Counted from the stretch's first letter, positions 14,867 through 55,641 are shown. The stretch is DNA of 64,000 nucleotides from Clostridia bacterium (GCA_045534555.1 JAZSJW010000010.1:10533-74532), one strand, 5' to 3'. Notes: a model not told the origin generated them from the letters alone. Made by a program: numbers and translations.

Positions 14867-16315
14867 ATGAGCAAAATTGAAGAAATTGGAATTGAAAATA
14901 TTATTAAAGCGATGAACGAACACTACAAAAAATTTGGTAGAGATGAGAAATTTATTAGAATGGAAGATGTTGTAATAAACAGCAACGAACCAAAATATAT
15001 TTATGACATTTCTAATGCCGTAAATGGCATTGATATGGATAAATTTTCAAAGTCTATGTCTAAGTATTTTAATATTTGGAGTTCAAGTTATGATTATTTC
15101 GAATTTGTTGAAAAATTTCTAGCGTTAGAAAATGCCAATCACTCCTATTTTGTTCCCGAAGTATTAATCACTCATAGTGCAGAAAAACTCGCTTTCGCAG
15201 TTAATAATATTAAAGGGGTTGATATTGACTATATAGTTTCTCGAGAAATAGAAAATAAAAATCCACAAATTCTTTATTATCTTGCGCGCGAATTGCCCGA
15301 AAAAAGACAAGAACTAGCTAATGCTTTTTTAGAAATAGACAGCAACAGATCTAGCATTTATGATTCTTTTGTTGAATATTTTGCACATTTTGCAAAACTT
15401 GAAAATATCGATATAAAACCTTTTGAAGATAAATTTTACTATACAGTTGAAAACAGACCAGAGCTTGACCACGCTGAATTTGTTAAAAAATTAGCAAGCT
15501 TAAAAGAAATTGATATAGACAGACTTTCTAACTTTTGTCTATCAAGAAAAGCTTGTGAAAAAATTGCACTTTTGAATAGTCTTTATTGGTTTGACCAAAC
15601 AATAGTAAGCAATAATGGTTTAAAAGAAAAACTTTTGCTTTCAATATTTTCAAAACCGCTTTGCCAATATGATTATAAATACCTTTATCTTAATTTCTCA
15701 AATATTGAATTTTTAATTAACAAAGCATTAAAAAATCCTTGCGAAGAAAGTTGTACTATTGCAAGCAACTTAATTGAAATTTATAATAGCAAGTTAGCTA
15801 CAACTCAAAAGAGTTCATTAAAAGATTTAATTATTAATAACTCTCAAAACCCATTAAATCTTCTAACTTGTGCAAAATTTATTCCAGAATTTCAAACAGA
15901 ATATGAAGACACAATAATTAATCTTATGAGAAACAACCCACAAAGCGAGAAAACATTCCATTCATTTGTTGAAATTTCAAGGCTTAGCAAACATCAAGAT
16001 AAAATGGTTGATAGTATGCTTGAAATGGTTAACGAAGGACTGAGCATTTATACTCTTTTAGCATTAGCATCAAACGTTAAAACAGACACTTCAAAAATAT
16101 CAAAAAGCCTTGCTAAAAATGGAACTTATATCCAAATTTGTGATTGGCTAACATATTACAAACACAAACAATCGGATATTGATTATATCTATAAAAACGC
16201 AAGTACAAAATGGTCCCAAGAAGAAAAAGAAAGATTTAAAAGCAAATTCCAAGTCACCCCTGAAGACGAACAACAAAGTCCACTTGATGACATTTTCTCA
16301 GATTTAGCAAAATAA
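14867..16315 (+). CDS. hypothetical helical protein, tandem paralogue A
   Basis: 482 aa, collinear with the next gene over its full length. Shared blocks include MxKIEEIGIENIIKAMNEHYKKFGRD, AVNNIKGxDIDYI, LPEKRxELA, FEDxFYY, NPCxESC and QDKMxDxxxEMVN. Confidence 0.55.
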   Translation: MSKIEEIGIENIIKAMNEHYKKFGRDEKFIRMEDVVINSNEPKYIYDISNAVNGIDMDKFSKSMSKYFNIWSSSYDYFEFVEKFLALENANHSYFVPEVLITHSAEKLAFAVNNIKGVDIDYIVSREIENKNPQILYYLARELPEKRQELANAFLEIDSNRSSIYDSFVEYFAHFAKLENIDIKPFEDKFYYTVENRPELDHAEFVKKLASLKEIDIDRLSNFCLSRKACEKIALLNSLYWFDQTIVSNNGLKEKLLLSIFSKPLCQYDYKYLYLNFSNIEFLINKALKNPCEESCTIASNLIEIYNSKLATTQKSSLKDLIINNSQNPLNLLTCAKFIPEFQTEYEDTIINLMRNNPQSEKTFHSFVEISRLSKHQDKMVDSMLEMVNEGLSIYTLLALASNVKTDTSKISKSLAKNGTYIQICDWLTYYKHKQSDIDYIYKNASTKWSQEEKERFKSKFQVTPEDEQQSPLDDIFSDLAK

Positions 16316-16350: not shown

Positions 16351-17835
16351 ATGACAAAAATTGAAGAAATTGGAATTGAAAACATTATTAAAGCGATGAA
16401 CGAACACTACAAAAAATTTGGTAGAGATAAAAAGTTTGAACAAATGGAACAACAAATAATCAAACTTGGCGAAATTAAAGATTGGTATGAAATCTGCAAA
16501 AATGTTAAAGGAATAGATATCGATTATTTTTCGCGAATACTTGCAACAGAATACAATAAACACGAGTTTCTTTCTAAAGAGTTTGGATATATTCAAAACT
16601 TTTTAGAGTTAAAAAATGTCAATCATTCATATTTTGTTAACCCAGCAGCACTATCTATAGATTCAAGCAAACTTGCTTGGGCGGTTAACAACATTAAAGG
16701 AATAGACATTGACTATATTATTGAAAAAGCAATTAAAAAACAATTTTCTAGAACTCTTTTCAACCTTGCCGAAGCCCTTCCTGAAAAAAGAAAAGAACTA
16801 GCAGAGACTTATTTAAGCATGAACGTTCATAGATTTGACAATAATTATTTTAACTTTGTTGATGTTTTCGCTGATTTTGCCAAACTTGAAGGATTAAACC
16901 CTAAAGAGTTTGAAGATAGATTTTACTATCTAGTTAACGGAGATTCACAATTTGCTGAACACAGCAAATTTATTGGAACCTTAATGCAAATAAAAGAAAT
17001 AGACTGCGAAAAACTGGCTAACTGGGCTTTAAGAAGAAAACCAATTGAAATGATAAGAGTTTTAAACGGTTTATACTTAACAAGAGCTAATATTACCAAA
17101 GATAATAAAGAATATTATGCTAAACGTCTTCTTGACAACCTATTTTCTAAACCTTTAAAAGAAAACGACTACAGAGAACTTCACTTTTACTCTGAACATT
17201 TGGATTATCTTGTTAGAAAAGCAACCTCTAACCCTTGTAAAGAAAGTTGCATAACTGCAATCAACTTGTTTGAAGTTTATGATCGTAGGCTTCATAGCAA
17301 CGACAAAAGAAGATTAAAAGATTTAATTGTTCAAAACAGCATAAACCCACACACTGTTTATAAACTTTCAAAATTTATGCCAGAGGCTCAAGAAGAATGT
17401 GAAGATGCAATCATTAGATTAATGCAAGAACAACAAGCAAACCCTGCAGAATTAATGCATTGTTATATTGAAATTACAAAACAAAGCAAAAATCAGGATA
17501 AAATGCTAGACGCACTAATTGAAATGGTTAACCACCTTAAACACAATACAACAGCACTTAACGTTTACTATTCAAACATCGAAAGTGCAGACGTTAATAA
17601 AATAACAGAATGTATGGCTAAACATGATAGTTTAACAAACATCTATTCTTGGCTTTCAAATTTTAGAGGTAAACAACAAAAAGAGCTTGCACGAACCGCA
17701 TACTTTAGCGGAAGAGATTTATGGGAGCTAGAAGAAATTTCACAATTTAAGCACGACTTTAATATTAAATCCCCAGCTAAAGAAATTGATGAAGAAAGCC
17801 CTCTAGATACAATTTTAGAAGAACTTAATAAATAA
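16351..17835 (+). CDS. hypothetical helical protein, tandem paralogue B
   Basis: 494 aa. See paralogue A. Its own RBS (TAGGAG) lies 35 nt after the stop of A. Confidence 0.55.
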   Translation: MTKIEEIGIENIIKAMNEHYKKFGRDKKFEQMEQQIIKLGEIKDWYEICKNVKGIDIDYFSRILATEYNKHEFLSKEFGYIQNFLELKNVNHSYFVNPAALSIDSSKLAWAVNNIKGIDIDYIIEKAIKKQFSRTLFNLAEALPEKRKELAETYLSMNVHRFDNNYFNFVDVFADFAKLEGLNPKEFEDRFYYLVNGDSQFAEHSKFIGTLMQIKEIDCEKLANWALRRKPIEMIRVLNGLYLTRANITKDNKEYYAKRLLDNLFSKPLKENDYRELHFYSEHLDYLVRKATSNPCKESCITAINLFEVYDRRLHSNDKRRLKDLIVQNSINPHTVYKLSKFMPEAQEECEDAIIRLMQEQQANPAELMHCYIEITKQSKNQDKMLDALIEMVNHLKHNTTALNVYYSNIESADVNKITECMAKHDSLTNIYSWLSNFRGKQQKELARTAYFSGRDLWELEEISQFKHDFNIKSPAKEIDEESPLDTILEELNK

Positions 17836-17846
17836 AAAGAAAAAAA

Positions 17847-17876
17847 AGAGAGATTTACTCAATCTCTCTTTTTTCT
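17847..17876. terminator. bidirectional intrinsic terminator
   Basis: Stem AGAGAGAT (17847-17854) / ATCTCTCT (17862-17869) with flanking A- and T-runs. It overlaps the stop codon of the minus-strand 516-aa gene. Confidence 0.6.
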
Positions 17877-19405
17877 TGTTCTCTTTCCCTTCTTAAAGCT
17901 TCTCTTTTAAAGCAATTTTTTGCTTTTTCGTTAAACACCATATCGGCTTCTAAGACACATTTATCCACAATTCTTTCAAGTTGCTTTTTTATAAACTTAT
18001 CACTAGCACCTTGTTTTTGATATATGCTTTCCAAAACTTTTTTTACTTTTGGTAATGATAAAGCTTTCGCGTTTCCCCTATTTAAAACCGACTTTAAAAT
18101 TCCGATTGATTTAATACAAATATAGGCATTTTCAATGTCCTCATCTAGCAAATCGGTTTCAGCATTTGATACTGATTTTAGTGCCGAAATATAACTATCA
18201 ATTTTAAAAGAATTAACACCATACTCAACAGCCATGTTATCGAAAGTTTCTTTCCTTTGTTTATAACTTTCAAAGCCTTGCCTACTTATTTGCAATATAT
18301 CCTCATCAATTTTATCCTGCATAAATTCCGCAATCAAAAAACTCAAAGTGCTTTCTTGCGGCATACCAACTGCATCTTGATAAACATTTCTTTTTATCCC
18401 CTCGTCTTTTAACCAACGCTTTAACAATTCACAAGCTTTTTGTTTCTTTACAAAAAAATTATTATTGTTAACTTCTTGCTCTATTTCTTCAAACTTAGAT
18501 GACAACCCTAAATCACTAAAAGCACTTCTGCATGTAGAAACATCTAAAAGCATATCTTCTATTAAAAGATTTTTATCTTCATCATCGTAAAGTGCATTTA
18601 AACCCCTTTCATAAACTACAAGTTTTTCATTTTTTAAACAATCTTTATCTTTAAGCGGTAAAAACGCAAACAAATAACTTAAATATGGTTCTTCTTTCTC
18701 ATCAGCAACGTCCCATGTTACATCAGAATAGCCATAACCTTTTACACCGTATTTTTTATCATCAAGATAAACTAAAACGTTAGAGTGCGTTCCAAGATGT
18801 TCGCCATCTCTTTTATAAGAATCTAGTATTTGAACAACACTTTCAATTCCCAACTTTTCATGTAAATATGTTTCTAATTTTGCATAGCCATAACAAACAA
18901 CATTATCACCAGTTAGAACATTTATTAAAGAGCGAGACTTTCTCTTTTCTTGTTCATTCTCTTTATATTTAATACTTGCTATATAGCCATGAATTAAATA
19001 ATGTGTTTCAAGCGGAGATAAATCCAAACTTTTTACAGCATCAATAAATTTTTCCGCATTAAAAAAAGCATCAACACTCTCTTCAACAGAATACTCTTGA
19101 GAAATATCATAAAAATTTACATCAACACCGATATTCTTCATATCAACTGAAAAATCTACAATTAAAGCATAGTCTTTTTCATCAAGTCTTAAATCTTTAG
19201 TATCTATATGCACAAATGGTGAATAATTAAAATGTTTTATCTTTGCTATAAGGGCAAACAATTTATCCATTGTTTCATGATTATATTTATCCAAGCTGAC
19301 GTATATATCATAATTTTCGCCAGAACCCTCATCAATATTACGTTCTTTTATGATTTTCTGCAAATCTGCCATCGAACCTATTGTACAAAAGTTATTTCTG
19401 CCCAT
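17855..19405 (-). CDS. hypothetical protein with transglutaminase-like (papain-fold) Cys-His-Asp core
   Basis: The central segment VVCYGYAKLETYLHEKLGIESV ... GTHSNVLVYLDD ... YSDVTWD matches the order and spacing of the transglutaminase-core C / H / D motifs. The start (AGGTGG RBS) overlaps the recF stop by 14 nt. Confidence 0.45.
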   Translation of the reverse strand: MGRNNFCTIGSMADLQKIIKERNIDEGSGENYDIYVSLDKYNHETMDKLFALIAKIKHFNYSPFVHIDTKDLRLDEKDYALIVDFSVDMKNIGVDVNFYDISQEYSVEESVDAFFNAEKFIDAVKSLDLSPLETHYLIHGYIASIKYKENEQEKRKSRSLINVLTGDNVVCYGYAKLETYLHEKLGIESVVQILDSYKRDGEHLGTHSNVLVYLDDKKYGVKGYGYSDVTWDVADEKEEPYLSYLFAFLPLKDKDCLKNEKLVVYERGLNALYDDEDKNLLIEDMLLDVSTCRSAFSDLGLSSKFEEIEQEVNNNNFFVKKQKACELLKRWLKDEGIKRNVYQDAVGMPQESTLSFLIAEFMQDKIDEDILQISRQGFESYKQRKETFDNMAVEYGVNSFKIDSYISALKSVSNAETDLLDEDIENAYICIKSIGILKSVLNRGNAKALSLPKVKKVLESIYQKQGASDKFIKKQLERIVDKCVLEADMVFNEKAKNCFKREALRREREQEKREIE

Positions 19406-20640: not shown

Positions 20641-22020
20641 ATGGAAAAAGAAGATTTCATCGTATCATCAATTCATTCCGTAGACATCAATAATATTTGG
20701 GAACAAGCAAAGAAATTGATTGAAAACAAAATTGCCGGAGTATCTTTTGATGTTTGGATTACAACTATTGAGCCAGTGGAGCTAAAAGGTAATTGCTTAA
20801 TTCTCGCAACACCAAGTTCTTCAAGCAAAAAAGTTTTAAAAAATAACTATAAAAACCAAATCACTGCATGCCTTAACGAAGTACATAATGCTATAACCAG
20901 TGTTGAGTTTGTTATAGGAAGTGCTGAAGAAGAACTTAAAGAAATAGAGATAGAACCTCAAGTCGTTGAAGAAAAACAAGAGTTGTCTTCTTCAAACTTT
21001 AATCCTAAATATACTTTTGATAATTTCGTTGTTGGAGCAAGTAACCAATTTGTTGCAGCCGCTGCTAAAGCAGTTGCACAAAACCCAGGCGGAAAATGGA
21101 ACCCACTATTTATTTATGGCGGTGTGGGTTTAGGTAAAACTCACCTATTGCATGCAATTGGGAGCTACATTTCCGAACACGAACCAAATAAAAAAGTAGT
21201 ATATGTAACTTGCCGAAATTTTGCTGATGACCTACTCGCTTATATTAGAGACAGTAAAAAAACAGCAACAGCTGATTTTAGAGCTAAATATAGATCTGCC
21301 GATGTTTTAATTATTGACGATATTCAAGGAATTATCAATAGAACTGCTGTTCAGAATGAGTTTTTTGATACATTTAATGATTTGCATCAAGCAGGAAAGC
21401 AAATTATAATTGCGTCAGATAAACCACCTAAAGATATTAATCCATTAGAAGAAAGACTTCGTTCTCGTTTTGAATGGGGTATGCTTGCAGATATTGGTAT
21501 TCCAGACCTTGATACAAAAGTTGCAATTCTTAGTAAAAAAGCTCAAATGGAACACTATAACGTCTCTCGTGACGTTCTTGAATTTATTGCAAGTGCTCAA
21601 ACAACTAACATTCGTGAACTAGAAGGCATGCTTGCAAGAACCGTATTTTTAGCAAGTCTTAAAGGGGAAAGCATCGCTTCTCTAGATATAGCTAAAGAAG
21701 CATTAAAAGATATTGCTGTTCAAGACGAAGCTGAAATCGATGCTGGAAAAATTGTAGACAATGTTTGTAAGTTCTTCAATATTAAAAAAGATGAAATCCT
21801 TGCAAGAAAAAGAACTAAAGAGGTTGCCTTAGCAAGACAAGTTGCAATGTATCTTATTTCGGACATGCTTGGCACGCCTTACGAATCTATTGGTAATATT
21901 TTCGGAAAAGACCATTCAACCGCAATTTATGCTAAAAACAAGATCATTGAAGACATGCAGAAAAACAAAAAACTTGCTACAGATGTAAATGACATTAAAC
22001 AAATGATTAAAGGAAAGTAA
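20641..22020 (+). CDS. dnaA: chromosomal replication initiator DnaA
   Basis: Walker A GGVGLGKTHLLHA, Walker B LIIDDIQ, sensor/box VII motifs and the C-terminal DNA-binding region KDHSTAIYA. Confidence 0.97.
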   Translation: MEKEDFIVSSIHSVDINNIWEQAKKLIENKIAGVSFDVWITTIEPVELKGNCLILATPSSSSKKVLKNNYKNQITACLNEVHNAITSVEFVIGSAEEELKEIEIEPQVVEEKQELSSSNFNPKYTFDNFVVGASNQFVAAAAKAVAQNPGGKWNPLFIYGGVGLGKTHLLHAIGSYISEHEPNKKVVYVTCRNFADDLLAYIRDSKKTATADFRAKYRSADVLIIDDIQGIINRTAVQNEFFDTFNDLHQAGKQIIIASDKPPKDINPLEERLRSRFEWGMLADIGIPDLDTKVAILSKKAQMEHYNVSRDVLEFIASAQTTNIRELEGMLARTVFLASLKGESIASLDIAKEALKDIAVQDEAEIDAGKIVDNVCKFFNIKKDEILARKRTKEVALARQVAMYLISDMLGTPYESIGNIFGKDHSTAIYAKNKIIEDMQKNKKLATDVNDIKQMIKGK

Positions 22021-47682: not shown

Positions 47683-47939
47683 AACAAAAACCACCTTTTT
47701 ACTTTATATAATATTATTATATAATAATGATTTAAAAAAAACAATAATTTTATGCTTAAAAACAGAACAAATAATTCGCCTTGTCACAATAAACAGACAC
47801 AAAAGCTATAACTACATCAAAAATACAATAAAGAAAAACAAAAAAAATCAAAAAAACACTTTAAATTTCTAAAAGTGTATGTTATAATCATATCACTTGG
47901 TTAAGTTCAGGGCACAAACCAAGCACAACTAAATAAAGT

Positions 47940-48030
47940 GGAGAGATACTCAAGTGGCCGAAGAGGATGCCCTGCTAAGGCGTTAGTACGAGTAATCGTA
48001 GCGCGGGTTCAAATCCCGCTCTCTCCGCCA
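47940..48030 (+). tRNA. tRNA-Ser (anticodon GCU), CCA encoded
   Basis: GGAGAGA acceptor stem pairing with TCTCTCC, anticodon loop CTGCTAA, long variable arm, T-arm GCGGG-TTCAAAT-CCCGC, discriminator G and CCA. Confidence 0.9.
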
Positions 48031-48066
48031 AGTGATAACAATCCGAACACTTATGTTCGGGTTGTT
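48025..48066 (+). repeat. direct repeat, left copy (last 6 nt of tRNA-Ser plus its terminator hairpin)
   Basis: CCGCCAAGTGATAACAATCCGAACACTTATGTTCGGGTTGTT recurs at 52128..52169 with a single mismatch (48044 C versus 52147 T). Weaker similarity continues for about 15 more nt. Confidence 0.9.
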
Positions 48067-48070
48067 TTTT
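48039..48070 (+). terminator. intrinsic terminator of tRNA-Ser
   Basis: Stem CAATCCGAACA / TGTTCGGGTTG, followed by a T-run. Confidence 0.7.
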
Positions 48071-48189
48071 ACTAAAAAATCAGTTGCAATAAACCAAAAG
48101 AAAAATCAGCCCCTTTGACAAAATTTTGAAAGTTTATATTGAAAATGTGTCTGTTTTATGCTAATATAAAAAAGATTTAGGAGAAACCT

Positions 48190-48975
48190 ATGAATATAAG
48201 AGATTTCAATAATGACGACTTTATCAATGTAATAAATTTGTATAGTGCACCATACAAAATAAAAAACGGAGAATCTTTAGCTCCTATTGAAATATTAGAT
48301 ATAAAAAGAAACTCTACTGAGGCTATAATTAAAACATCTCAAATTTTTATGGATAAATACATCATTAAGAGATCTTTTAAATTTAGTAACAACCAAGACG
48401 GAATCTCTATTAAGACAGAAATGATAGATCACGAACTTAGTGGAAATGTTGTTGTTTATGATGCATCACGTTATTTTACTCCTATTTTCATGATGATTTC
48501 TTCTAATAACAAAGACAAATCTGTAGATTGGTTATCAAGATTCTCTATGGATGATTTATATTATTTTGCCAATAAATATGTTCAGACTTGCTCTAGCATA
48601 AATATAGAAACTGACACCCAATTCCATAATCATTGTAAAGACATATTTACAAAAGATGAAAACGGTTACATAATTTCAGCTAGAAGCTTTGGGGATTATG
48701 GCATAAACTATGCTAAACATACACACACCCTATCTAAACTTAATAGTCCCACTCTTTTCCAGCCCGAAGATTTGGAATTTTATAAATTAATGCTAACAAA
48801 ATTAAATAATGACGAAAAAATAGAATACACTAACAATTTTGTCAATGCTCATCTCGAATCATTCATAAACATTAAAAATAATAAATCTAATTTTATACTA
48901 AATATAGACAAATGCAGAAATAGTGCCATAAAGTTATTAGAAAGTCTTGGGGATGATCAACAAACAAGTTTGTAA
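48190..48975 (+). CDS. hypothetical protein (first gene of the islet)
   Basis: 261-aa ORF with a TAGGAG RBS and no motif I can recognise. It is separated from the SIR2 gene by a 267-nt non-coding stretch ending in terminator 49156..49186. Confidence 0.55.
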   Translation: MNIRDFNNDDFINVINLYSAPYKIKNGESLAPIEILDIKRNSTEAIIKTSQIFMDKYIIKRSFKFSNNQDGISIKTEMIDHELSGNVVVYDASRYFTPIFMMISSNNKDKSVDWLSRFSMDDLYYFANKYVQTCSSINIETDTQFHNHCKDIFTKDENGYIISARSFGDYGINYAKHTHTLSKLNSPTLFQPEDLEFYKLMLTKLNNDEKIEYTNNFVNAHLESFINIKNNKSNFILNIDKCRNSAIKLLESLGDDQQTSL

Positions 48976-49155
48976 TAATTGCTTAAATTATTGCAAGCAG
49001 GCAAGGCAAAACAAAATTAAGTCAAAAACAAATAAAGCGAATTGCCTTTATCCTTGCCACCGACTTAAAGAGCTTTGCCGAAACTACCGGCGACTTTTCT
49101 AACCTATCAGCAAATGTAGTCTACACTCATTTGCAATCCAATCAATAAAACTACG

Positions 49156-49186
49156 AGAAGAAGTGAAAAACTTCTTCTTTTTTTCT
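49156..49186 (+). terminator. intrinsic terminator inside the islet
   Basis: Stem AGAAGAAG (49156-49163) / CTTCTTCT (49171-49178) plus a T-run. Confidence 0.7.
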
Positions 49187-49242
49187 TGTAGGCCTTTCAT
49201 TATTAAACAAAATATGCTATAATAAGATAAGCGAGGGTTACT

Positions 49243-50274
49243 ATGAAAAAAATAAATATTTACAACGATAATAGCGATGAACGAAAATATGAAATTAAAA
49301 AATTGATTAATATGTTTTCTTCTTCACACATTAATGTTTTACTTGGTTCAGGTTTTTCAATGCCACTACTAAGCACTTTAGCTAACATCGAGAAAGATTT
49401 GACAGAAGCTATAAAGAATAATGATATCGAGAAGCAGGCAAATTTATACAAAATATTTTTTGAAGGTTCTATGTTGCCTTTAATAAATAAGAAAGATGAA
49501 AAATCTAACATAAATGCAAGAAACAACTTTGTAAAACATATTTATAACTTTGCCGATACAAGAGATAGTTCAACTTTACATAAAATGATAAATATTTATA
49601 CAACAAATTATGATAATCTTATTGAAAGTTCATTAGAAACTAATAAAATACCTTATTTTGACGGATTTGAAGGTCGTTCTCCTGCAATATTTTCCACAAC
49701 AAATTACGGCAAATTTTTTGGTCGTCAAAGTGGCATTTCTAATAGGTCTACCGAAATTACTGCTGTTAATTTATATAAACTTCATGGTTCATTATTTTGG
49801 AAACAAACAGAAACCGAAATCCAATTTGAAAACTTTAAACACAGGTTACAAGAATTTGAAAAAACAAGCAATACTGGCGAAGAATATATAAAAGAATATG
49901 AGAATAAATTTGCTATAATAAACCCAACTAAAGAAAAACTAAATTCAACTTTGCTTAATATTAATTACTATGACCAATTAAGGTTAATGAGCAATGAACT
50001 AGAAAAGCAAAACGCACTACTTCTTTCTTTCGGCTTTTCTTTTGCAGATGAACATATTTATACCATAATTGAAAGAACTTTAAAAATCAACCCAACTCTT
50101 ACATTAATATTATTTGCCTATTCTCAAGAAGATTTAGATAAATTTTCCAATATATTTGAGTTAAATAAAAATTGTATCTGCTATTATATGGAAAATGAAT
50201 CCAATGAATTTATTAACTTTTCTCTTTCTCAATTAAATTTACTTTTAGATGAGGTATCTGATGAAATTAAATGA
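49243..50274 (+). CDS. SIR2-like (SIR2_2 family) NAD-utilising protein
   Basis: Motifs VLLGSGFSMP, IYTTNYDNLIE and LYKLHGSLFW match the defence-associated SIR2_2 pattern (GAG-like loop, TTNYD, KxHG). Preceded by an extended -10 TGCTATAAT. Overlaps the next gene. Confidence 0.75.
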   Translation: MKKINIYNDNSDERKYEIKKLINMFSSSHINVLLGSGFSMPLLSTLANIEKDLTEAIKNNDIEKQANLYKIFFEGSMLPLINKKDEKSNINARNNFVKHIYNFADTRDSSTLHKMINIYTTNYDNLIESSLETNKIPYFDGFEGRSPAIFSTTNYGKFFGRQSGISNRSTEITAVNLYKLHGSLFWKQTETEIQFENFKHRLQEFEKTSNTGEEYIKEYENKFAIINPTKEKLNSTLLNINYYDQLRLMSNELEKQNALLLSFGFSFADEHIYTIIERTLKINPTLTLILFAYSQEDLDKFSNIFELNKNCICYYMENESNEFINFSLSQLNLLLDEVSDEIK

Positions 50275-52051
50275 TGAATTAAGAATAGGCGAAGTTTCAG
50301 AAGTTTCTGGAAAACAAATCAAAGCTGGCATTTATTATGAAAAAAACACAGAATTCTTAAATTTCAATGGAGATGTAATAAAAAATGTAAGTATAGGTAG
50401 TTTTGTTATAATTAGAAAATCATATACTAACATTGTTGGTAAGGTTGAAGGCGAGTTTATAAAAGAAAGTTCTTCTAACGATTTTACAGATTTCAAAGGA
50501 AGAAATATAAATCGAGTAATTAGTATTTCTATTTTAGGGAGCATTAAAAACAATAAATTTATACACGGATTAAACAGCTTGCCAATGGTTGGTAATTATG
50601 TATATGTGGCAACAGAACATGTTGTAAATGAAATTTTTTCAAACACAGAAAATGATAATCTTACACTCGGAAATTTAATTGGAGTTGGTGATTATCCATT
50701 TACTGTTAATTGTCAAAACCTATTATGTAGCCATATAGGAATATTTGGAAATACAGGAAGCGGGAAATCAAATACTTTAGCAAAAATATATAAGGATACT
50801 ATTGAGAAATTTTCAATCTATAACAACTTTAAAAATAATACAAAATTTGTTTTTATAGATTTTAATGGTGAATATGAAAATGTATTTGATGAATGTGATA
50901 ATTTTATATTATCTACTCGTAAAACAAAAGATAGATATCCATTATCTTTTAAAGATATTACAGATAGTGAGTTTTGGTCAATAATTTTAGAAGCCACCGA
51001 TAAAACACAAAAGCCATTTATAGAAAGAGCAATAAAAGAATTTAAGTATATTGAAAACCACCCAGAAAGTATAGACTATAAAGAATTAATTGACTTAGTA
51101 TTTAATGCCACAGAAAAATATACTGAAATTAGATTGTATTTAAAAGAATTATTTTATTTATTAGGCCTTAAAGAACATTTTTCAAACATTGAAGAACATT
51201 TACATTATAACACTAAACAAAAGTGTTTTTATACATTGACTGATGGCACTCAAAACTATGGTATAGATAAAGAAGTTATATTTGATTTGTCTTTTGGAAA
51301 TTCTGACAATCTCACAATTGATTTGACTAACTATAATAAATTTGATAAGTTTGCAATAGTGTTATATAAACAATATTGTAGGGAAATAAGCAAGGCTTTT
51401 GTAACAAAAGAACATATTGGCCCACTAATGGCAAGGTCAAGAACAAGAATTGAACAACTGGACAAAATTTTTGAGATAAAAACAAACGATAAAAAAAGGA
51501 AAACAAATATTGACATAATTTCTTTGATTGGATTAAATGTTGAAATGCGTAAAATTGTTCCATTGATTATTTGTAAAAAATACTATAATGAGAAAAAAGA
51601 ATCCAGAAAGAAAACGATAGTTTCTACTTTACATATAATTATTGATGAAGCTCACAATATTTTATCAACAACATCTATTAGAGAAAGTGAAGAATGGAAA
51701 GATTATCGTCTAGAATGTTTTGAAGAAATTATAAAGGAAGGTCGAAAATTCGGCACATTCTTAACTATTGCTAGTCAAAGACCTTCTGATATTTCTGATA
51801 CAATCATCTCCCAATTGCACAACTACTTTATTCATAGATTAGTCAATGAAGAAGATTTAAGAAAGATTTATAGAACTATATCTTTTTCCGATAAAGCGAC
51901 AAATGAAATGATTTCAATATTACCAGCTGGTGGATGTGTTTTTTCAGGATTGGCAACAAACTTTCCAATCTTAGCTCAAATAAGGAAATTAGATACAAGA
52001 CACGAACCAACTAGTCAAAATGCAAAAATTGATAATATTTGGAAAGATTAG
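50261..52051 (+). CDS. HerA/FtsK-like hexameric ATPase
   Basis: N-terminal barrel-like IGEVSEVSGKQIKAGIY, Walker A GNTGSGKSNT (nt 50747-50770), Walker B LHIIIDEAHNIL and IASQRPSDIS. ATG 50261 (GAGG upstream) or ATG 50249; either start overlaps the SIR2 stop at 50274. Confidence 0.75.
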   Translation: MKLNDELRIGEVSEVSGKQIKAGIYYEKNTEFLNFNGDVIKNVSIGSFVIIRKSYTNIVGKVEGEFIKESSSNDFTDFKGRNINRVISISILGSIKNNKFIHGLNSLPMVGNYVYVATEHVVNEIFSNTENDNLTLGNLIGVGDYPFTVNCQNLLCSHIGIFGNTGSGKSNTLAKIYKDTIEKFSIYNNFKNNTKFVFIDFNGEYENVFDECDNFILSTRKTKDRYPLSFKDITDSEFWSIILEATDKTQKPFIERAIKEFKYIENHPESIDYKELIDLVFNATEKYTEIRLYLKELFYLLGLKEHFSNIEEHLHYNTKQKCFYTLTDGTQNYGIDKEVIFDLSFGNSDNLTIDLTNYNKFDKFAIVLYKQYCREISKAFVTKEHIGPLMARSRTRIEQLDKIFEIKTNDKKRKTNIDIISLIGLNVEMRKIVPLIICKKYYNEKKESRKKTIVSTLHIIIDEAHNILSTTSIRESEEWKDYRLECFEEIIKEGRKFGTFLTIASQRPSDISDTIISQLHNYFIHRLVNEEDLRKIYRTISFSDKATNEMISILPAGGCVFSGLATNFPILAQIRKLDTRHEPTSQNAKIDNIWKD

Positions 52052-52127
52052 TGTATTTTGCAAATTAAAACTCTAATCCACCTAGCACCAATGTAGCTTT
52101 TGGTGTTAGGATTGGATAACGGTCTTC

Positions 52128-52169
52128 CCGCCAAGTGATAACAATCTGAACACTTATGTTCGGGTTGTT
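52128..52169 (+). repeat. direct repeat, right copy
   Basis: CCGCCAAGTGATAACAATCTGAACACTTATGTTCGGGTTGTT. It includes a second copy of the terminator hairpin followed by a T-run. Confidence 0.9.
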
Positions 52170-52339
52170 CTTTTTTTGCTAAAAATTATATTAACAAATA
52201 AGTTTTTTGTCGGTTGTTCTTTAATCTTCTAATCAAAACAAATGATAAATAGAAAATGCAATTATATCTCGGTTAAAATCTGTTATTGTGATAAAATTAA
52301 CTTTCTTGAAACATATTATTTTAATACTTAGATAAAAAA

Positions 52340-52370
52340 GGTCCAAAACATAATTGTTTGGACTTTTTTT
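52340..52370. terminator. bidirectional intrinsic terminator
   Basis: Stem GTCCAAA (52341-52347) / TTTGGAC (52357-52363) with an A-run before and a T-run after. The T-run overlaps the stop codon of the minus-strand gene. Confidence 0.6.
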
Positions 52371-52836
52371 ATAACCCGTTTTTTGAACGAAGATATGTTA
52401 TTCTTGTGTTTTGATTTTCTTTTATTAAATTCAATCTATTAAGCATTTGCTTTAGCTGAACTAAATCAGTTTTTATCGCAACAAACTCTTCCACAATTAA
52501 ATCTTCTGTTGCATTTTCAAAATTGGTATACTTAAAGTATTCATGAGTAAAATAGTTTCTTTTACCAAGAAGATCTTTTAACGTATTTATTTCTTCATGG
52601 CTTAAACTTTTAGATTCGTACACAGTTCCAATCATTTGACCAAAAGTCATAGTTTCCATTTTTTCTTTCAAAAATGCAGCATCATCTACTACCCTATTAT
52701 ATTCTTGAGCTGTAATTTTTGAATGTCTTCCAAACTCTTTAATAATTTCACTTTTTTCACAAATCTCGCCTAAACAAATTTCAATTTGTTGAGTAATTTC
52801 TGCAAACTTACCTATTAAACAATAAATTCTATTCAT
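52369..52836 (-). CDS. small HEPN-motif protein (HepT/DUF86-like RNxxxHxY), no partner gene
   Basis: 155 aa, all-helical composition. KRNYFTHEYF at residues 92-101 (nt 52537-52560) gives R93-x4-H98-x-Y100. Confidence 0.45.
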   Translation of the reverse strand: MNRIYCLIGKFAEITQQIEICLGEICEKSEIIKEFGRHSKITAQEYNRVVDDAAFLKEKMETMTFGQMIGTVYESKSLSHEEINTLKDLLGKRNYFTHEYFKYTNFENATEDLIVEEFVAIKTDLVQLKQMLNRLNLIKENQNTRITYLRSKNGL

Positions 52837-52924
52837 AATTCTTTTAAACCCCTTAAGTAGTAGCTATATGATAACACATCTTACAAATATCAACAAATCA
52901 AAATAAAAGGTTTTATTTTAAACA

Positions 52925-52962
52925 ATAAAAAATCCAAAACTTTAAATTTATGTTTTGGATTT
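52925..52962 (-). terminator. intrinsic terminator of secA (minus strand)
   Basis: Stem ATCCAAAAC (52932-52940) / GTTTTGGAT (52952-52960), with a T-run on the minus strand. Confidence 0.65.
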
Positions 52963-52971
52963 TATTTTTAC

Positions 52972-55641
52972 TTAATTCTTGCCACAACAGTTTTTATATT
53001 TTTTACCACTTCCACAAGGACATGGATCATTTCTTCCAACCTCTTTTTCCGTCTTTTTAATAGTTCCTTGAGGTCTATCTGCTTTAGGTGCTTTTTTTAC
53101 AGGGATATTTTCTACCCTTTCAACTCTCTTAATTCCCATTAACGCATTTGCAACATCTCTACGCATCGCAGTAATCATATCATCAAACATATCAAATCCT
53201 TCTGTTTGATAAATAGTTATAGGGTTTTTATTTCCGTATGCTCTTAAACCAACACCTTGTCTTAAATTATCCATATTATCAATATGGTCAATCCATTTTC
53301 TATCCATAATATTTAAAAGCACTTGTCTTTCTATAACACCAAAATCTACATTATGTTCTTTAGCATCTTCAACTTTTTCTTCATATCTTTTTTCTGCTAT
53401 AGCATAAATTTCTTCTGCTAGTTCTCTTGAAGAATATTTGTTTAAAGTTTTATCATTAATAAAGTTTGTTCCTGGTTCTAATAGCCTTCTCTCAAGCGCC
53501 ATATTGAAATCATCTTGATCAACCTCATCAGCTTCTTTATCGTTATCATACTCATAAACAACTTCTTGAGCAACTTCATTAATCATTGCTAAAATTTTAT
53601 CATGAACATTAGCGCCATCTAAAATTCTATTTCTTTCTTTATATACTTCTTCACGCTGACGATTAAGTACATTATCAAATTCTACAACCTGTTTTCTAAT
53701 AGAGAAGTTTCTTCCTTCAACTCTCTTTTGAGCTGTTTCTACACTTCTAGAGAAAAATTTCCAGTTAATAGAAGTATCTTCTTCAAGTTTTAGCATTTCT
53801 GCCATTTTCTTTAATCTTTCCGACCCAAAAATTCTAGCAAGATCATCATCTGCTGAAATGTAGAATACAGAATAACCCGGATCACCTTGTCGACCAGAAC
53901 GACCACGAAGCTGATTATCAATACGTCTAGATTCGTGTCTTTCTGTACCCACAATCATCAAACCACCAAGTTCAACAACTTTAACTTTTTCTTCTTTAAC
54001 TTCTTTACTAAATTCTTCAAGAAGTTTTTGATAAGTTTCTCTAGCTTCTTTTTCTTCGTCTGTATTTACAGGGAAATATGAAGAAGCTAATTCAATTATA
54101 TCTTCTTCATAGCCTTTTTTCTTCATCTCTTGTTTAGCTTTAAATTCGGCATTACCACCAAGCATAATATCTGTACCACGACCAGCCATGTTTGTTGCAA
54201 TAGTAACACTACCTAGTCTTCCTGCCTGAGCAACAATCTCTGCTTCTCTTTCGTGATTTTTTGCATTAAGAACATTGTGCGGAATTTTTAATTTTCTAAG
54301 TTCTTTAGAGATTTCTTCTGATTTTTCAACAGTAATGGTACCAACAAGTACTGGTTGACCTTTTTCATGTGCCTTTTTAACAGTTTCACAGATTGCCTTA
54401 ATTTTTGCCTCATGCGAGAAATAGAAAATATCATTCGCATCAACTCTTTGCACTGGAGTATTTGTTGGTATAATAACAACGTCTAATCCGTAAATATCTT
54501 TAAACTCACCCTCTTCTGTTTTCGCTGTACCAGTCATACCGCTGATTTTATTATACATTTTAAAGAAATTTTGAAGGGTAACAGTTGCAAGCGTTTTGTT
54601 TTCTGCATTAATTTTCACATTTTCTTTCGCTTCAATTGCCTGATGAAGACCATCAGAATACCTACGACCTACCATGATACGACCGGTAAACTCATCAACA
54701 ATTAATACCTCGCCGTTATGCACAATATAATCATTATCTCTCTTCATCATAAATCTAGCACGAATTGCATTGTTTATGTTATGGTTAATATCTGTATGCT
54801 CAACATCACTAAGATTATCAATCTTATAAAATCTTTCAGCTTTTTCGATACCGTCTTCAGTTAAGTGAATAGTCTTTTTCTTTTCATCGATATCAACATC
54901 ATTCTCTTTTAAAGTTTTAGCAAACCTACAAGCAGTTTCATATTCTTGACAACTTTCCCCTGACGGACCGGACAAAATAAGCGGAGTTCTAGCTTCATCA
55001 ATTAAAATACTATCCACCTCGTCAATGATGGCAAACTCAAGCCCTCTCATCATCATTTGATTTTTATTCATCGCCATATTATCACGAAGGTAGTCAAAAC
55101 CAAATTCACTATTTGTACCATAAGTTATATCAGCTTCATATGCTTTTTTCTTTTCTTCTAAAGGTTGATTTGCATAGACAACCCCAACCTTTAAACCTAA
55201 AAATCTATGAATTTTACCCATCCATTCCGCATCACGTTTTGCTAGATATTCGTTAACTGTTACAATATGAACAGGTTTTCCTGAAAGAGCATTTAAGTAT
55301 GCAGGAAGTGTTGATACAAGAGTTTTACCCTCACCTGTTTTCATTTCTGAAATACGTCCTTGGTGAAGAACAATACCACCTAATAATTGAACGTGGAAAT
55401 GTTTCATTTTAAGCACTCTAAAACCAGCTTCTCTTACTACTGCAAATGCATCTGGTAAAATATCGTCTAAAGTTTCGCCCTTTGACAATCTGCCTTTTAA
55501 AATTTCTGTCTGAGATTTCAACTCCTCATCAGACATCTTACTATATTTTTCATCTAAAGCTTCTATTTTAGAAGCAATTTTTTCAAGCTTCTTTATGCTT
55601 TTTTTATTATCAAATTCTGCAAAATATTTGAATAGTCCCAT
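52972..55641 (-). CDS. secA: preprotein translocase ATPase SecA
   Basis: MKTGEGKTLV, IIDEVDSILIDEARTPLILSG, TNMAGRGTDI and the C-terminal zinc motif CPCGSGKKYKNCCG. Confidence 0.97.
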   Translation of the reverse strand: MGLFKYFAEFDNKKSIKKLEKIASKIEALDEKYSKMSDEELKSQTEILKGRLSKGETLDDILPDAFAVVREAGFRVLKMKHFHVQLLGGIVLHQGRISEMKTGEGKTLVSTLPAYLNALSGKPVHIVTVNEYLAKRDAEWMGKIHRFLGLKVGVVYANQPLEEKKKAYEADITYGTNSEFGFDYLRDNMAMNKNQMMMRGLEFAIIDEVDSILIDEARTPLILSGPSGESCQEYETACRFAKTLKENDVDIDEKKKTIHLTEDGIEKAERFYKIDNLSDVEHTDINHNINNAIRARFMMKRDNDYIVHNGEVLIVDEFTGRIMVGRRYSDGLHQAIEAKENVKINAENKTLATVTLQNFFKMYNKISGMTGTAKTEEGEFKDIYGLDVVIIPTNTPVQRVDANDIFYFSHEAKIKAICETVKKAHEKGQPVLVGTITVEKSEEISKELRKLKIPHNVLNAKNHEREAEIVAQAGRLGSVTIATNMAGRGTDIMLGGNAEFKAKQEMKKKGYEEDIIELASSYFPVNTDEEKEARETYQKLLEEFSKEVKEEKVKVVELGGLMIVGTERHESRRIDNQLRGRSGRQGDPGYSVFYISADDDLARIFGSERLKKMAEMLKLEEDTSINWKFFSRSVETAQKRVEGRNFSIRKQVVEFDNVLNRQREEVYKERNRILDGANVHDKILAMINEVAQEVVYEYDNDKEADEVDQDDFNMALERRLLEPGTNFINDKTLNKYSSRELAEEIYAIAEKRYEEKVEDAKEHNVDFGVIERQVLLNIMDRKWIDHIDNMDNLRQGVGLRAYGNKNPITIYQTEGFDMFDDMITAMRRDVANALMGIKRVERVENIPVKKAPKADRPQGTIKKTEKEVGRNDPCPCGSGKKYKNCCGKN

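What the first reader, a model, noticed from the sequence alone, without database searches (positions are those of the whole stretch)
48025..52169. Integrase-less 4.1-kb islet at the 3' end of tRNA-Ser(GCU), bounded by 42-bp direct repeats and carrying a SIR2-HerA module
Seen directly. The 42 nt CCGCCAAGTGATAACAATC[C/T]GAACACTTATGTTCGGGTTGTT occur at 48025..48066 and 52128..52169 with one mismatch. This covers the last 6 nt of the tRNA including CCA, plus its complete terminator hairpin. Degenerate similarity runs for about 15 more nt. Between the copies lie three plus-strand ORFs. The last two overlap (SIR2 stop 50274; ATPase start 50249/50261). They carry SIR2_2-type motifs (GSGFS, TTNYD, KLHG) and HerA/FtsK-type motifs (Walker A GNTGSGKS, Walker B IIIDEAH, SQRPSD).

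Established knowledge. SIR2 plus HerA gene pairs are a validated anti-phage, NAD-depleting defence system, and tRNA 3' ends are classical island integration sites.

What is unusual. No integrase, recombinase or transposase ORF is visible in any frame inside the islet or next to it. The duplicated segment extends beyond the tRNA to include a whole terminator. An 11-bp-stem hairpin (52081..52110) with no T-run sits just inside the right repeat. So this is either a decayed or trans-mobilised minimal defence islet, or a product of a different insertion mechanism.
Basis: partly seen in the sequence, partly recalled or inferred. Interest (0 to 1): 0.72.

Follow-up and report, generated by a model that had tools for sequence, protein, structure and literature searches.

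The report
Recombinase-less remnant of a serine-recombinase defence cassette
The 4.1-kb insert after tRNA-Ser is real and carries an intact SIR2-HerA anti-phage pair, but it is a decayed copy of a small island family that a large serine recombinase, not the usual tyrosine integrase, inserts at the CCA end of tRNA-Ser genes.

Summary
tRNA-Ser(GCU) lies at 47940-48030. A 42-nt repeat (48025-48066 and 52128-52169, one mismatch, none expected by chance) bounds three plus-strand ORFs. HMMs confirm SIR2 and HerA. No recombinase domain was found in any ORF tested across the 64-kb window.

Related contigs explain the structure. Window 49005-52138 is 94% identical to the right end of an 8.1-kb island (L111) and 78% identical to that of an 8.9-kb island (L084). 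Both islands sit exactly at the CCA end of a tRNA-Ser(GCU). Each has a large serine recombinase (LSR) gene abutting the tRNA and SIR2-HerA at the far end.

The first 14 nt of the extended 54-nt right repeat copy (CGGTCTTCCCGCCA, 52120-52133) are the island's right arm. The remaining 36 nt are the host terminator. The left copy matches the island's own terminator-like left arm, which in full islands encodes the LSR C-terminus.

In the window the LSR and other cargo are gone. A rare 261-aa gene of unknown function sits in their place, and a 79-aa gene upstream of SIR2 is truncated. A conspecific contig (L090) carries different DNA at the same junction.

Verdict: a pseudo-SCC/CIME-like remnant. 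The defence module is known. The LSR-tRNA targeting is the unusual part.

The parts
47940..48030 (+). tRNA-Ser(GCU), intact. It forms the B arm of the attachment site.
   Evidence: ARAGORN and Rfam tRNA at 54.7 bits.
48025..48030 (.). CCGCCA at the left junction (attL). This is the only segment shared by both island ends in all relatives, so the crossover is inferred to lie here.
   Evidence: L083 and L084 are 99.98% identical from this CCGCCA to the CCGCCA of the right arm and differ outside. L111 has only this 6-nt repeat.
48031..48085 (+). Island left arm (P'). It holds a terminator hairpin (48037-48066) plus T-run, including the motif CAATCCGAACAC (48039-48050). On the minus strand it is a relic of about the last 18 codons of the lost LSR gene.
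   Evidence: 80% identity to the L084 tRNA plus P' over 136 nt. tblastn of LSR residues 490-523 hits 48076-47978. See also the att table, terminator scan and fold.
48190..48975 (+). orf261, a gene of unknown function that sits where relatives have the LSR, an HTH gene and R-M or methylase cargo. A promoter-like site lies at 48139-48167.
   Evidence: No hit in Pfam, NCBIfam, PHROGs or PADLOC. Only 7 relatives among 1.84 billion representatives. AF2 model pLDDT 91 with no PDB or BFVD fold match. No counterpart in L084, L111 or L110.
48999..49148 (+). Truncated 79-aa gene. Codons about 31-79 plus the stop remain in frame. The start codon and first third are missing, and in-frame stops lie upstream. 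This marks the left breakpoint of homology to the full islands.
   Evidence: tblastn gives 81% aa identity to the L109 79-aa protein and 53% to L084's. Frame translation shows the upstream stops.
49155..49179 (+). Terminator-like hairpin after the truncated 79-aa gene. An extended -10 promoter element (TGcTATAAT, 49215-49223) for SIR2-HerA follows.
   Evidence: Terminator scan and direct reading of the sequence.
49243..50274 (+). SIR2-family NADase gene, full length (343 aa). It carries the GSGFS, TTNYD and KLHG motifs.
   Evidence: Solved SIR2-HerA relatives 8w9l and 8j4u. 337 of 343 residues identical to L111.
50249..52051 (+). HerA-type ATPase gene (600 aa, or 596 aa from 50261). It overlaps the SIR2 stop and has intact Walker A and Walker B motifs.
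   Evidence: Solved relatives 9c1m, 8yho, 8xau and 8j4u. 581 of 600 residues identical to L111.
52052..52133 (+). Island right arm (P). It contains a hairpin (52076-52117) and the motif GTGTTAGGATTGG (52103-52115), which is inverted relative to the P' motif. It ends in CGGTCTTCCCGCCA.
   Evidence: Homology to L084 ends at its island end (11879), and homology to L111 and L110 ends at 52138. See also the att table and fold.
52134..52177 (+). Host-side arm (B'): the terminator hairpin and T-run displaced from the tRNA. The T at 52147 weakens the stem.
   Evidence: The conspecific L090 matches the window at 97.9% up to 52128 and carries C at this position. The same hairpin follows a tRNA-Ser(UGA) in L107.

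Best explanation
The segment 48031-52133 is the decayed, recombinase-less remnant of a small cassette-type defence island. Full-length relatives are 8-9 kb. They have a large serine recombinase (LSR) gene at the tRNA-proximal end. Variable defence cargo follows (C5 methylases or a type IIG R-M enzyme). A 79-aa gene, SIR2 and HerA sit at the distal end.

Inferred mechanism. The LSR recombines the circular island's attP with the CCA end of a tRNA-Ser gene, crossing over within CCGCCA. attP consists of the right arm ...GTGTTAGGATTGG...TCTTCCCGCCA joined to the left arm AG.G..AACAATCCGAAC... Integration separates the tRNA from its own terminator. The island's left arm supplies a replacement terminator hairpin, and the LSR C-terminus is encoded across that hairpin on the opposite strand.

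In this genome the island's hairpin is almost identical to the host hairpin, which produces the 42-nt repeat. Later the LSR gene and the neighbouring cargo were lost, except for about its last 18 codons. About 0.9 kb carrying orf261 now sits in their place, and the 79-aa gene was truncated.

SIR2-HerA keeps its own promoter and intact motifs. It presumably still works as the known NAD+-depleting abortive-infection system.

What is shown: the homology of both ends and of the cargo to LSR islands, the precise island ends, and the absence of a recombinase in the window. What is inferred: that the LSR is the integrase, the crossover position, the order of events, and defence activity.
For: 1. Precise island ends. 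L084/L085 and L083/L086 carry the same 8.95-kb island (99.98% identity over 8948 nt) at two different sites. This fixes its ends at CCGCCA|AGCGCAAAC... and ...GGTCTTCCCGCCA|.

2. Position at the tRNA. In L084, L085, L108 and L111 the island starts exactly at the CCA end of a tRNA-Ser(GCU). The tRNA sequences differ among L084, L108 and L111. The LSR gene abuts and reads into the tRNA.

3. Tandem arrangement. In L084 a second island with its own LSR abuts the first island's CCGCCA.

4. Recombinase identity. These islands contain no tyrosine recombinase. The LSR has Resolvase, Recombinase and Zn_ribbon_recom domains, matches phrog_95 integrase at E = 1.7e-125 and is CcrB-like.

5. Cargo homology. 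Window 49005-52138 is 93.8% identical to L111 8749-11892, and window 49001-52133 is 78% identical to L084 8736-11879. Homology to L084 ends exactly at the island end (52133), and homology to L111 ends 5 nt beyond it.

6. Left-arm homology. The window's left arm is homologous to the L084 and L108 P' arms and retains the LSR C-terminal relic.

7. Recent horizontal transfer. SIR2 and HerA are 98% and 97% identical to L111's proteins, while the core protein TilS is only 40% identical.

8. Variable occupancy. The conspecific contig L090 is 97.9% identical up to 52128 and then carries unrelated DNA.

9. Native counterparts of the hairpin. L106 and L107 show the same hairpin types after tRNA-Ser genes with no LSR behind them (L107 is only 1.2 kb). 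The island arm and host arm can therefore be near-identical.
Against: No empty site from the same species was found.

No LSR was found in the 64-kb window, and the rest of the genome could not be searched.

LSR att sites normally share only a few bases. Near-identity of P' and B' over 36 nt is not expected from LSR chemistry and needs an extra assumption: mimicry, a relic of an earlier island, or gene conversion.

The window's left arm resembles the L084/L108 type, but its cargo and right arm are the L111 type, so the islet is mosaic.

Recombinase activity and the crossover dinucleotide are untested.

A published statement says that serine recombinases were not known to target tRNA genes (PMC4383910). 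The inference therefore runs against precedent.
Confidence: 0.78

Rival explanations
1. The islet is an active non-autonomous element. It keeps both att arms and is excised and re-inserted in trans by an LSR (plus any directionality factor) encoded by a sibling island elsewhere in the genome or community. This would parallel pseudo-SCC elements or CIMEs.
For: Both arms are intact over at least 55 nt, including the inverted motifs. A second LSR-less SIR2-HerA islet, 94% identical, sits at a tRNA-Ser(UGA) in an unrelated host with 40% GC flanks (L110). Tandem islands occur (L084).
Against: No LSR is present in the window. No excision junction or empty site was observed. The L110 left junction lacks the AATCCGAAC arm motif, and L110 shares about 100 nt beyond the right junction with L111. 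That pattern points to transfer of a larger block rather than clean LSR cutting.
Confidence: 0.2
2. The islet was not inserted here by a recombinase. A pre-formed islet flanked by two copies of the terminator hairpin moved from another tRNA-Ser locus or strain by homologous recombination through the 42-nt or larger repeats or through flanking homology.
For: An identical 36-nt hairpin follows a tRNA-Ser(UGA) in L107. L110 and L111 share the cassette plus about 100 nt of right flank at two different tRNA-Ser genes. The final structure would be indistinguishable from that left by LSR insertion.
Against: The homology to L084 ends exactly at the recombinase-defined island end, which fits site-specific insertion at some point in the lineage. 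A 42-nt repeat is a poor RecA substrate (established knowledge).
Confidence: 0.12
3. This is a classical tyrosine-integrase tRNA island whose 42-bp core is the crossover region and whose integrase gene has been deleted.
For: tRNA 3' ends and long att identity blocks are typical of tyrosine integrases (PMC4383910). Other tRNA-fragment scars exist at this tRNA in relatives: a 24-nt remnant in L096 and the tRNA-like arm in L090.
Against: Both ends and the cargo are homologous to islands that contain only an LSR. In L111 the repeat is only 6 nt. A relic of the LSR C-terminus is present.
Confidence: 0.04
4. The repeat is a local duplication of the tRNA end and terminator, unrelated to the cargo.
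For: None beyond the repeat itself.
Against: The 14 nt before the right terminator copy are contiguous with HerA in L084, L111 and L110 in other hosts. They derive from a different tRNA-Ser allele (TCTTCCCGCCA rather than the window's CTCTCCGCCA).
Confidence: 0.01

Closest known systems
SIR2-HerA anti-phage system (two-gene NADase plus HerA ATPase; solved complexes such as 8j4u, 8su9 and 8wld; PMC11472057)
   Same: A SIR2_2-domain protein and a HerA/DUF87 ATPase sit in an overlapping operon. The catalytic and Walker motifs are present. Full-length PADLOC matches are strong (E = 1.6e-56 and 3.7e-155).
   Different: The proteins are distant in sequence from the solved examples (phmmer E = 1e-9 to 1e-32, partial coverage). 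They fall below NCBIfam equivalog cut-offs. In relatives a conserved 79-aa gene precedes the pair, and it is truncated here. Activity is untested.
SCC elements (staphylococcal cassette chromosomes, CcrAB/CcrC) and ccr-less pseudo-SCC remnants
   Same: These are small cassettes without transfer genes, moved by large serine recombinases. They insert at the 3' end of one conserved gene near oriC, form tandem composites and leave recombinase-less remnants flanked by repeats. The LSR's best NCBIfam hits are CcrB and CcrA. The islet lies about 26 kb from dnaA.
   Different: The target is the CCA end of tRNA-Ser rather than rlmH. There is a single LSR gene, and it reads across the junction. The cargo is phage defence. 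The hosts are uncultured gut Clostridia. The Ccr hits are far below the equivalog cut-offs.
CIMEs (cis-mobilisable elements: decayed ICE/IME remnants that keep attL and attR; PMC5704250)
   Same: The islet has lost its recombination genes, retains both att sites and lies at a site where accretion with incoming elements occurs.
   Different: Described CIMEs derive from tyrosine-integrase ICEs. Mobilisation has not been shown here.
Islander-type tRNA genomic islands (tyrosine integrase, tDNA plus displaced tDNA fragment)
   Same: The island is at a tRNA 3' end, and sequence carried by the island restores what integration displaces. Here it restores the terminator.
   Different: No tyrosine integrase is present in the islet or in its full-length relatives. 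Only 6-14 nt of tRNA are duplicated. The Islander paper states that serine integrases were not known to target tRNA genes.

Membership tests
SIR2-HerA defence system | SIR2-family NADase with catalytic Asn and His motifs | tested here: met
   Pfam SIR2_2 at 49.5 bits (cut-off 24.5). PADLOC SIR2 E = 1.6e-56. TTNYD and KLHG align with the solved SIR2 8w9l.
SIR2-HerA defence system | HerA/FtsK-type ATPase with Walker A and Walker B motifs | tested here: met
   Pfam DUF87 at 70.3 bits. PADLOC HerA E = 3.7e-155 over residues 9-599. GNTGSGKS and IIIDEAH are present.
SIR2-HerA defence system | The two genes are adjacent in one operon | tested here: met
   The genes overlap by 14-26 nt. The same arrangement occurs in L081-L089 and L109-L111.
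SIR2-HerA defence system | Phage-triggered NAD+ depletion and protection from phage | not testable with these tools
   This needs phage challenge and NAD+ assays.
SIR2-HerA defence system | NCBIfam equivalog membership (SIR2_antiphage, HerA_antiphage) | tested here: not met
   Scores are 67 bits against a cut-off of 500, and 132 against 850. These models cover other subfamilies. This lowers exact equivalog membership but not the system call.
LSR-mobilised cassette island (SCC-like) | Large serine recombinase gene on board | tested here: not met
   Only a relic of about 18 codons remains in the window. No Resolvase or Recombinase domain was found in any scanned window ORF. The full-length relatives L084, L108 and L111 do carry the gene.
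LSR-mobilised cassette island (SCC-like) | Both ends homologous to the ends of LSR-bearing islands, with a short shared core | tested here: met
   The right arm matches L111, L110 and L084. The left arm matches L084 and L108. The shared core is CCGCCA.
LSR-mobilised cassette island (SCC-like) | Recombination at a central dinucleotide between attP and attB, catalysed by the LSR | not testable with these tools
   This is inferred only from junction comparison.
CIME / pseudo-SCC (non-autonomous remnant) | Lacks recombinase and transfer genes but keeps attL and attR | tested here: met
CIME / pseudo-SCC (non-autonomous remnant) | Can be excised or mobilised by a related element in trans or in cis | not testable with these tools
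   No junction reads or complete genome were available.
Tyrosine-integrase tRNA island | Tyrosine integrase gene in the island or in full-length relatives | tested here: not met
   No Phage_integrase domain is recorded for any gene of the L083/L084 or L111 islands or found in any scanned window ORF.
Tyrosine-integrase tRNA island | Displaced tRNA fragment marking the distal end | tested here: inconclusive
   Only 6 nt are identical, or 14 nt with 3 mismatches, and they come from a different tRNA-Ser allele.

The most novel reading that the evidence does not exclude
These are members of an undescribed family of small, SCC-like defence cassettes in gut Clostridia. Their large serine recombinase targets the CCA end of tRNA-Ser genes (GCU and probably UGA). 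Each cassette carries a surrogate tRNA terminator that also encodes the recombinase C-terminus, so the protein's tail changes on integration. The family spawns recombinase-less islets, such as the one in this window, that are still shuffled between tRNA-Ser loci in trans.
Probability: 0.25. Interest if true: 0.65.

Novelty: new variant of a known kind. Interest (0 to 1): 0.45.

Why it matters
The defence module itself is a known system, so the islet adds only another carrier.

The useful result is the explanation of an apparently integrase-less tRNA island. It belongs to a cassette family driven by a large serine recombinase, an enzyme class that the Islander authors said was not known to target tRNA genes (PMC4383910).

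If the assignment is confirmed, tRNA-based island finders that require a tyrosine integrase would miss such elements. These LSRs would also be candidate genome-engineering enzymes with a ready-made attB in many Firmicutes. The surrogate terminator that also encodes the recombinase tail would be a compact example of an island repairing what its insertion disrupts.

The analysis also shows how defence cassettes persist after losing their mobility genes.

Tried and rejected
- Exact-protein contig look-ups for the window's HerA (both starts), orf155 and the 100%-identical P0001 found nothing. The source genome is not retrievable.
- The genome-contig scan with SecA gave 80 loci, but synteny around the tRNA is not conserved even at 80-84% SecA identity. 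No empty site came from it.
- The sister species L094/L095 has SecA directly next to the 744-aa membrane protein, with no tRNA-Ser. It cannot serve as an empty-site reference.
- orf261 gave nothing in Pfam, NCBIfam, PHROGs or PADLOC, in phage or plasmid tblastn, or in PDB and BFVD fold searches.
- A viral-contig scan with the L084 LSR found no relative.
- The idea that the host-side arm in L111 is a relic of another island's left arm was tested by blastn-short against the L084 second-island arm. The match was not significant.
- The inner hairpin at 52076-52117 was considered as a conserved structural element. It is strong only in the window (-22 kcal/mol, against -9.4 in L084 and -2.9 in L081). 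I treat its right half as part of the conserved arm motif, not as a conserved hairpin.
- A 5-bp offset between attP-type and attB-type half-site spacing was considered but could not be established from these sequences.

Full report
**1. Observation**

ARAGORN places tRNA-Ser(GCU) at 47940-48030 on the + strand, and Rfam agrees at 54.7 bits. The 42-nt sequence CCGCCAAGTGATAACAATC[C/T]GAACACTTATGTTCGGGTTGTT occurs at 48025-48066 and 52128-52169 and nowhere else in the window. No match is expected in 100 shuffles even with 3 mismatches allowed.

Ungapped similarity runs to 54 nt at 91% identity. Both copies are terminator-like hairpins followed by T-runs.

Three plus-strand ORFs lie between the copies, and the flanking core genes are all on the minus strand. 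Profile searches confirm the SIR2 and HerA assignments:
- SIR2: Pfam SIR2_2 E = 6e-13 and PADLOC SIR2 E = 1.6e-56.
- HerA: Pfam DUF87 E = 3.4e-19 and PADLOC HerA E = 3.7e-155, matched over almost the full length.

Both proteins have relatives among solved SIR2-HerA complexes.

**2. Host and flanks**

The window comes from an uncultured low-GC gut member of the Clostridia. Its SecA is at most 84% identical to any species representative. The window contains the replication-origin region: dnaA, dnaN, gyrB, gyrA, yidC, jag, mnmE and mnmG.

The right-flank gene orf155 is a conserved lineage gene with 265 homologues, so it is not cargo.

No recombinase, integrase or transposase domain appears in the three islet ORFs, orf155 or 30 further ORFs of at least 170 aa. 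The seven remaining flank ORFs of that size were not scanned directly. For six of them the orthologues in L094 carry only housekeeping Pfam domains or none.

**3. What the islet is related to**

The closest HerA proteins with retrievable context sit in small islands.

*The L083-L086 island.*
- L083/L086 and L084/L085 carry one and the same 8.95-kb island, 99.98% identical over 8948 nt, at two different chromosomal sites. This fixes its ends precisely.
- The left end is CCGCCA|AGCGCAAACAATCCGAACCC..., a terminator-like hairpin.
- The right end is ...TGTGTTAGGATTAGTTGTCGGTCTTCCCGCCA|.
- The gene content is a large serine recombinase (Resolvase, Recombinase and Zn_ribbon_recom domains; phrog_95 integrase E = 1.7e-125; CcrB-like), small ORFs, an HTH protein, two C5 methylases, a 79-aa gene, SIR2 and HerA.
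- There is no tyrosine recombinase.
- In L084/L085 the island begins exactly at the CCA end of a tRNA-Ser(GCU), and the recombinase ORF on the other strand reads through the hairpin into the tRNA.
- A second island with its own LSR follows in tandem, again abutting CCGCCA.

*L108.* A third host has a 90%-identical LSR in the same position behind a different tRNA-Ser(GCU) allele.

*L111.* This contig carries an 8.1-kb island of the same design at yet another tRNA-Ser(GCU) allele. The order is LSR, HTH, a 186-aa gene, a type IIG R-M enzyme, a 78-aa gene, SIR2 and HerA.

**4. How the window maps onto these islands**

Window 49005-52138 is 93.8% identical to L111 8749-11892, and window 49001-52133 is 78% identical to L084 8736-11879. 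Homology to L084 ends exactly at the island's right end, and homology to L111 ends 5 nt beyond it.

The first 14 nt of the extended 54-nt right repeat copy (CGGTCTTCCCGCCA, 52120-52133) are therefore the island's right arm, P. Its TCTTCCC differs from the window tRNA's own CTCTCTCC. The following 36 nt are the host-side arm, B'.

The conspecific contig L090 confirms this. It is 97.9% identical to the window from SecA through orf155 to position 52128, and it then continues with unrelated DNA. The same junction therefore holds different elements in different strains.

On the left, 48031 to about 48085 is homologous to the P' arm of L084 and L108. It still carries the last codons of the LSR gene (tblastn of LSR residues 490-523 to 48076-47978).

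Between the two homologous ends, 5-6 kb of the full islands is missing: the LSR, the HTH gene and the R-M or methylase genes. In its place is 0.9 kb containing orf261.

The 79-aa gene survives only from about codon 31, and in-frame stops lie upstream.

SIR2 is 337/343 identical and HerA 581/600 identical to the L111 proteins. TilS of the two hosts is only 40% identical. The cassette therefore moved recently between distant hosts.

**5. The 42-nt repeat**

In L111 the two junctions share only CCGCCA. Its P' arm (TTAGGGAGTAATCCGAAC...) and its B' arm (GTAGTGAATAATACGAAC...) differ. The long repeat is therefore not a property of the recombination reaction.

All P' and B' arms except the L110 left junction and the B' of the non-tRNA site in L083 share the motif AAT(C/A)CGAAC at +10 to +18 after CCA. 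The P arm carries the same motif inverted (GTTAGGATT). This quasi-palindrome around a centre at or next to CCGCCA is what LSR attP sites look like (established knowledge of serine integrase att sites).

L106 and L107 show the L108-type and the window-type hairpins after tRNA-Ser(UGA)-type genes with no LSR behind them. In L106 a core gene follows. An island's P' can therefore be almost identical to a host's native tRNA-Ser terminator. Integration of such an island yields exactly the repeat seen here.

Three explanations remain open for why P' and B' match so closely: the island arm copies the host terminator, host terminators are relics of earlier islands, or gene conversion has homogenised them. 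One direct test of the relic idea was not significant.

**6. Mechanism proposed**

An LSR-driven cassette inserted at the CCA end of tRNA-Ser(GCU). The island-borne hairpin took over termination of the tRNA transcript. Later the recombinase and adjacent cargo were replaced by or deleted around orf261, leaving a recombinase-less islet with both arms intact.

SIR2-HerA retains an extended -10 promoter (TGcTATAAT, 49215-49223), an upstream terminator (49155-49179) and all catalytic motifs. It is presumably a working NAD+-depleting abortive-infection module. This last point rests on established knowledge of the system and is untested here.

Rivals:
- Ongoing trans-mobilisation remains possible. 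It gains some support from a second LSR-less islet, 94% identical, at a tRNA-Ser(UGA) in a host with 40% GC flanks (L110).
- Arrival by homologous recombination through the hairpin copies cannot be excluded, because it would give the same structure.
- A lost tyrosine integrase is strongly disfavoured.
- A local duplication unrelated to the cargo is refuted.

**7. orf261**

orf261 has no family assignment in four libraries. It has only seven relatives among 1.84 billion representative proteins. It has no phage or plasmid match. Its AlphaFold model is confident (pLDDT 91, pTM 0.85), but it matches nothing in the PDB or BFVD at E <= 0.001.

It has its own promoter-like site and ribosome-binding site. 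Its role is unknown. Its position in the cargo slot of a defence cassette makes a defence-related function a reasonable guess, nothing more.

**8. Comparison with known systems and novelty**

The defence pair is a new member of the known SIR2-HerA system.

The carrier resembles SCC elements and their ccr-less pseudo-SCC remnants, and also the CIMEs described for ICE/IME decay (PMC5704250). The unusual aspect is the target. [quoted passage not shown] A review of IMEs says that serine-recombinase elements integrate within genes and are flanked by very short repeats. A few tycheposons carry LSRs, so the combination may not be wholly unprecedented. I found no description of this family.

I rate the finding as a new variant of a known kind, of moderate interest. 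The parent family deserves a closer look.

Noticed in passing
L084 2882-2990, L083 2885-2990, L111 3703-3800: The LSR ORF reads through the island's terminator hairpin and across the junction into the tRNA or other flank. Its last 10-20 residues therefore depend on whether and where the island is integrated: ...LRLAGREGFEPSRRLPDLQP in L084, ...LRLAAPTKFRLNFHLIKLV in L083, and predicted ...LAGKTDN in the circular form.
   Followed up: partly
L110 8614-11990: A second recombinase-less SIR2-HerA islet, 94% identical to the window's. It lies directly after a tRNA-Ser(UGA) in a host whose flanks are 40% GC. It shares about 100 nt beyond the right junction with L111, which sits at a tRNA-Ser(GCU).
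   Followed up: partly
L107 6-140: A tRNA-Ser(UGA) is followed by a hairpin 36/36 identical to the window's tRNA-Ser(GCU) terminator. Two different serine isoacceptor genes carry the same terminator sequence.
   Followed up: partly
L096-L105 (e.g. L096 9339-9735, minus strand): In a related species the tRNA-Ser(GCU) is followed about 280 nt downstream by a perfect 24-nt copy of its 3' end with a second, different terminator. This looks like a mini scar of another element at the same tRNA.
   Followed up: partly
L094 9819-10001, L095: In the sister species (membrane protein 69% identical) SecA is directly followed by the 744-aa membrane protein gene. There is no tRNA-Ser and no orf155 between them. 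The block 47695-52971 of the window is therefore rearranged or absent there.
   Followed up: partly
L109 4286-4367: Downstream of HerA in the closest cassette with context (83% HerA identity) there is a second copy of the 3' end of the 79-aa gene plus its terminator. The 79-aa gene end may act as a recombination boundary for swapping cargo modules.
   Followed up: no
window 48190-48975: orf261 belongs to a very rare family (7 representatives in 1.84 billion proteins). It has a confident predicted fold (pLDDT 91) that has no match at E <= 0.001 in the PDB or BFVD.
   Followed up: yes
window 52147: The single mismatch in the repeat (T instead of C) turns a G-C pair of the displaced terminator into G-T. 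Predicted stability falls from -20.6 to -14.6 kcal/mol. The conspecific L090 has C. This may be relaxed selection on a terminator that no longer follows the tRNA.
   Followed up: partly
window 52090-52108 and 53334-53352: A 19-nt stretch of the right-arm hairpin is 95% complementary to a stretch inside the SecA coding region. At this base composition it is probably chance.
   Followed up: no
window 10193-30651: The window contains the replication-origin gene cluster: gyrA, gyrB, a RecF-like ATPase, dnaA at 20641-22020, dnaN, yidC, jag, mnmE and mnmG. The islet lies about 26 kb from dnaA. Three large ORFs without any Pfam or PADLOC hit (14867-16315, 16351-17835, 17855-19405) sit between gyrB and the RecF-like gene.
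   Followed up: partly
L090 1533-1830: In a conspecific strain the DNA inside the right junction is unrelated to the window's islet. It begins with a decayed tRNA-Ser 3' fragment (GGCGAGGGTTCAACAGTATCACTCGGT) of a foreign allele. The contig is too short to tell what element this is.
   Followed up: partly
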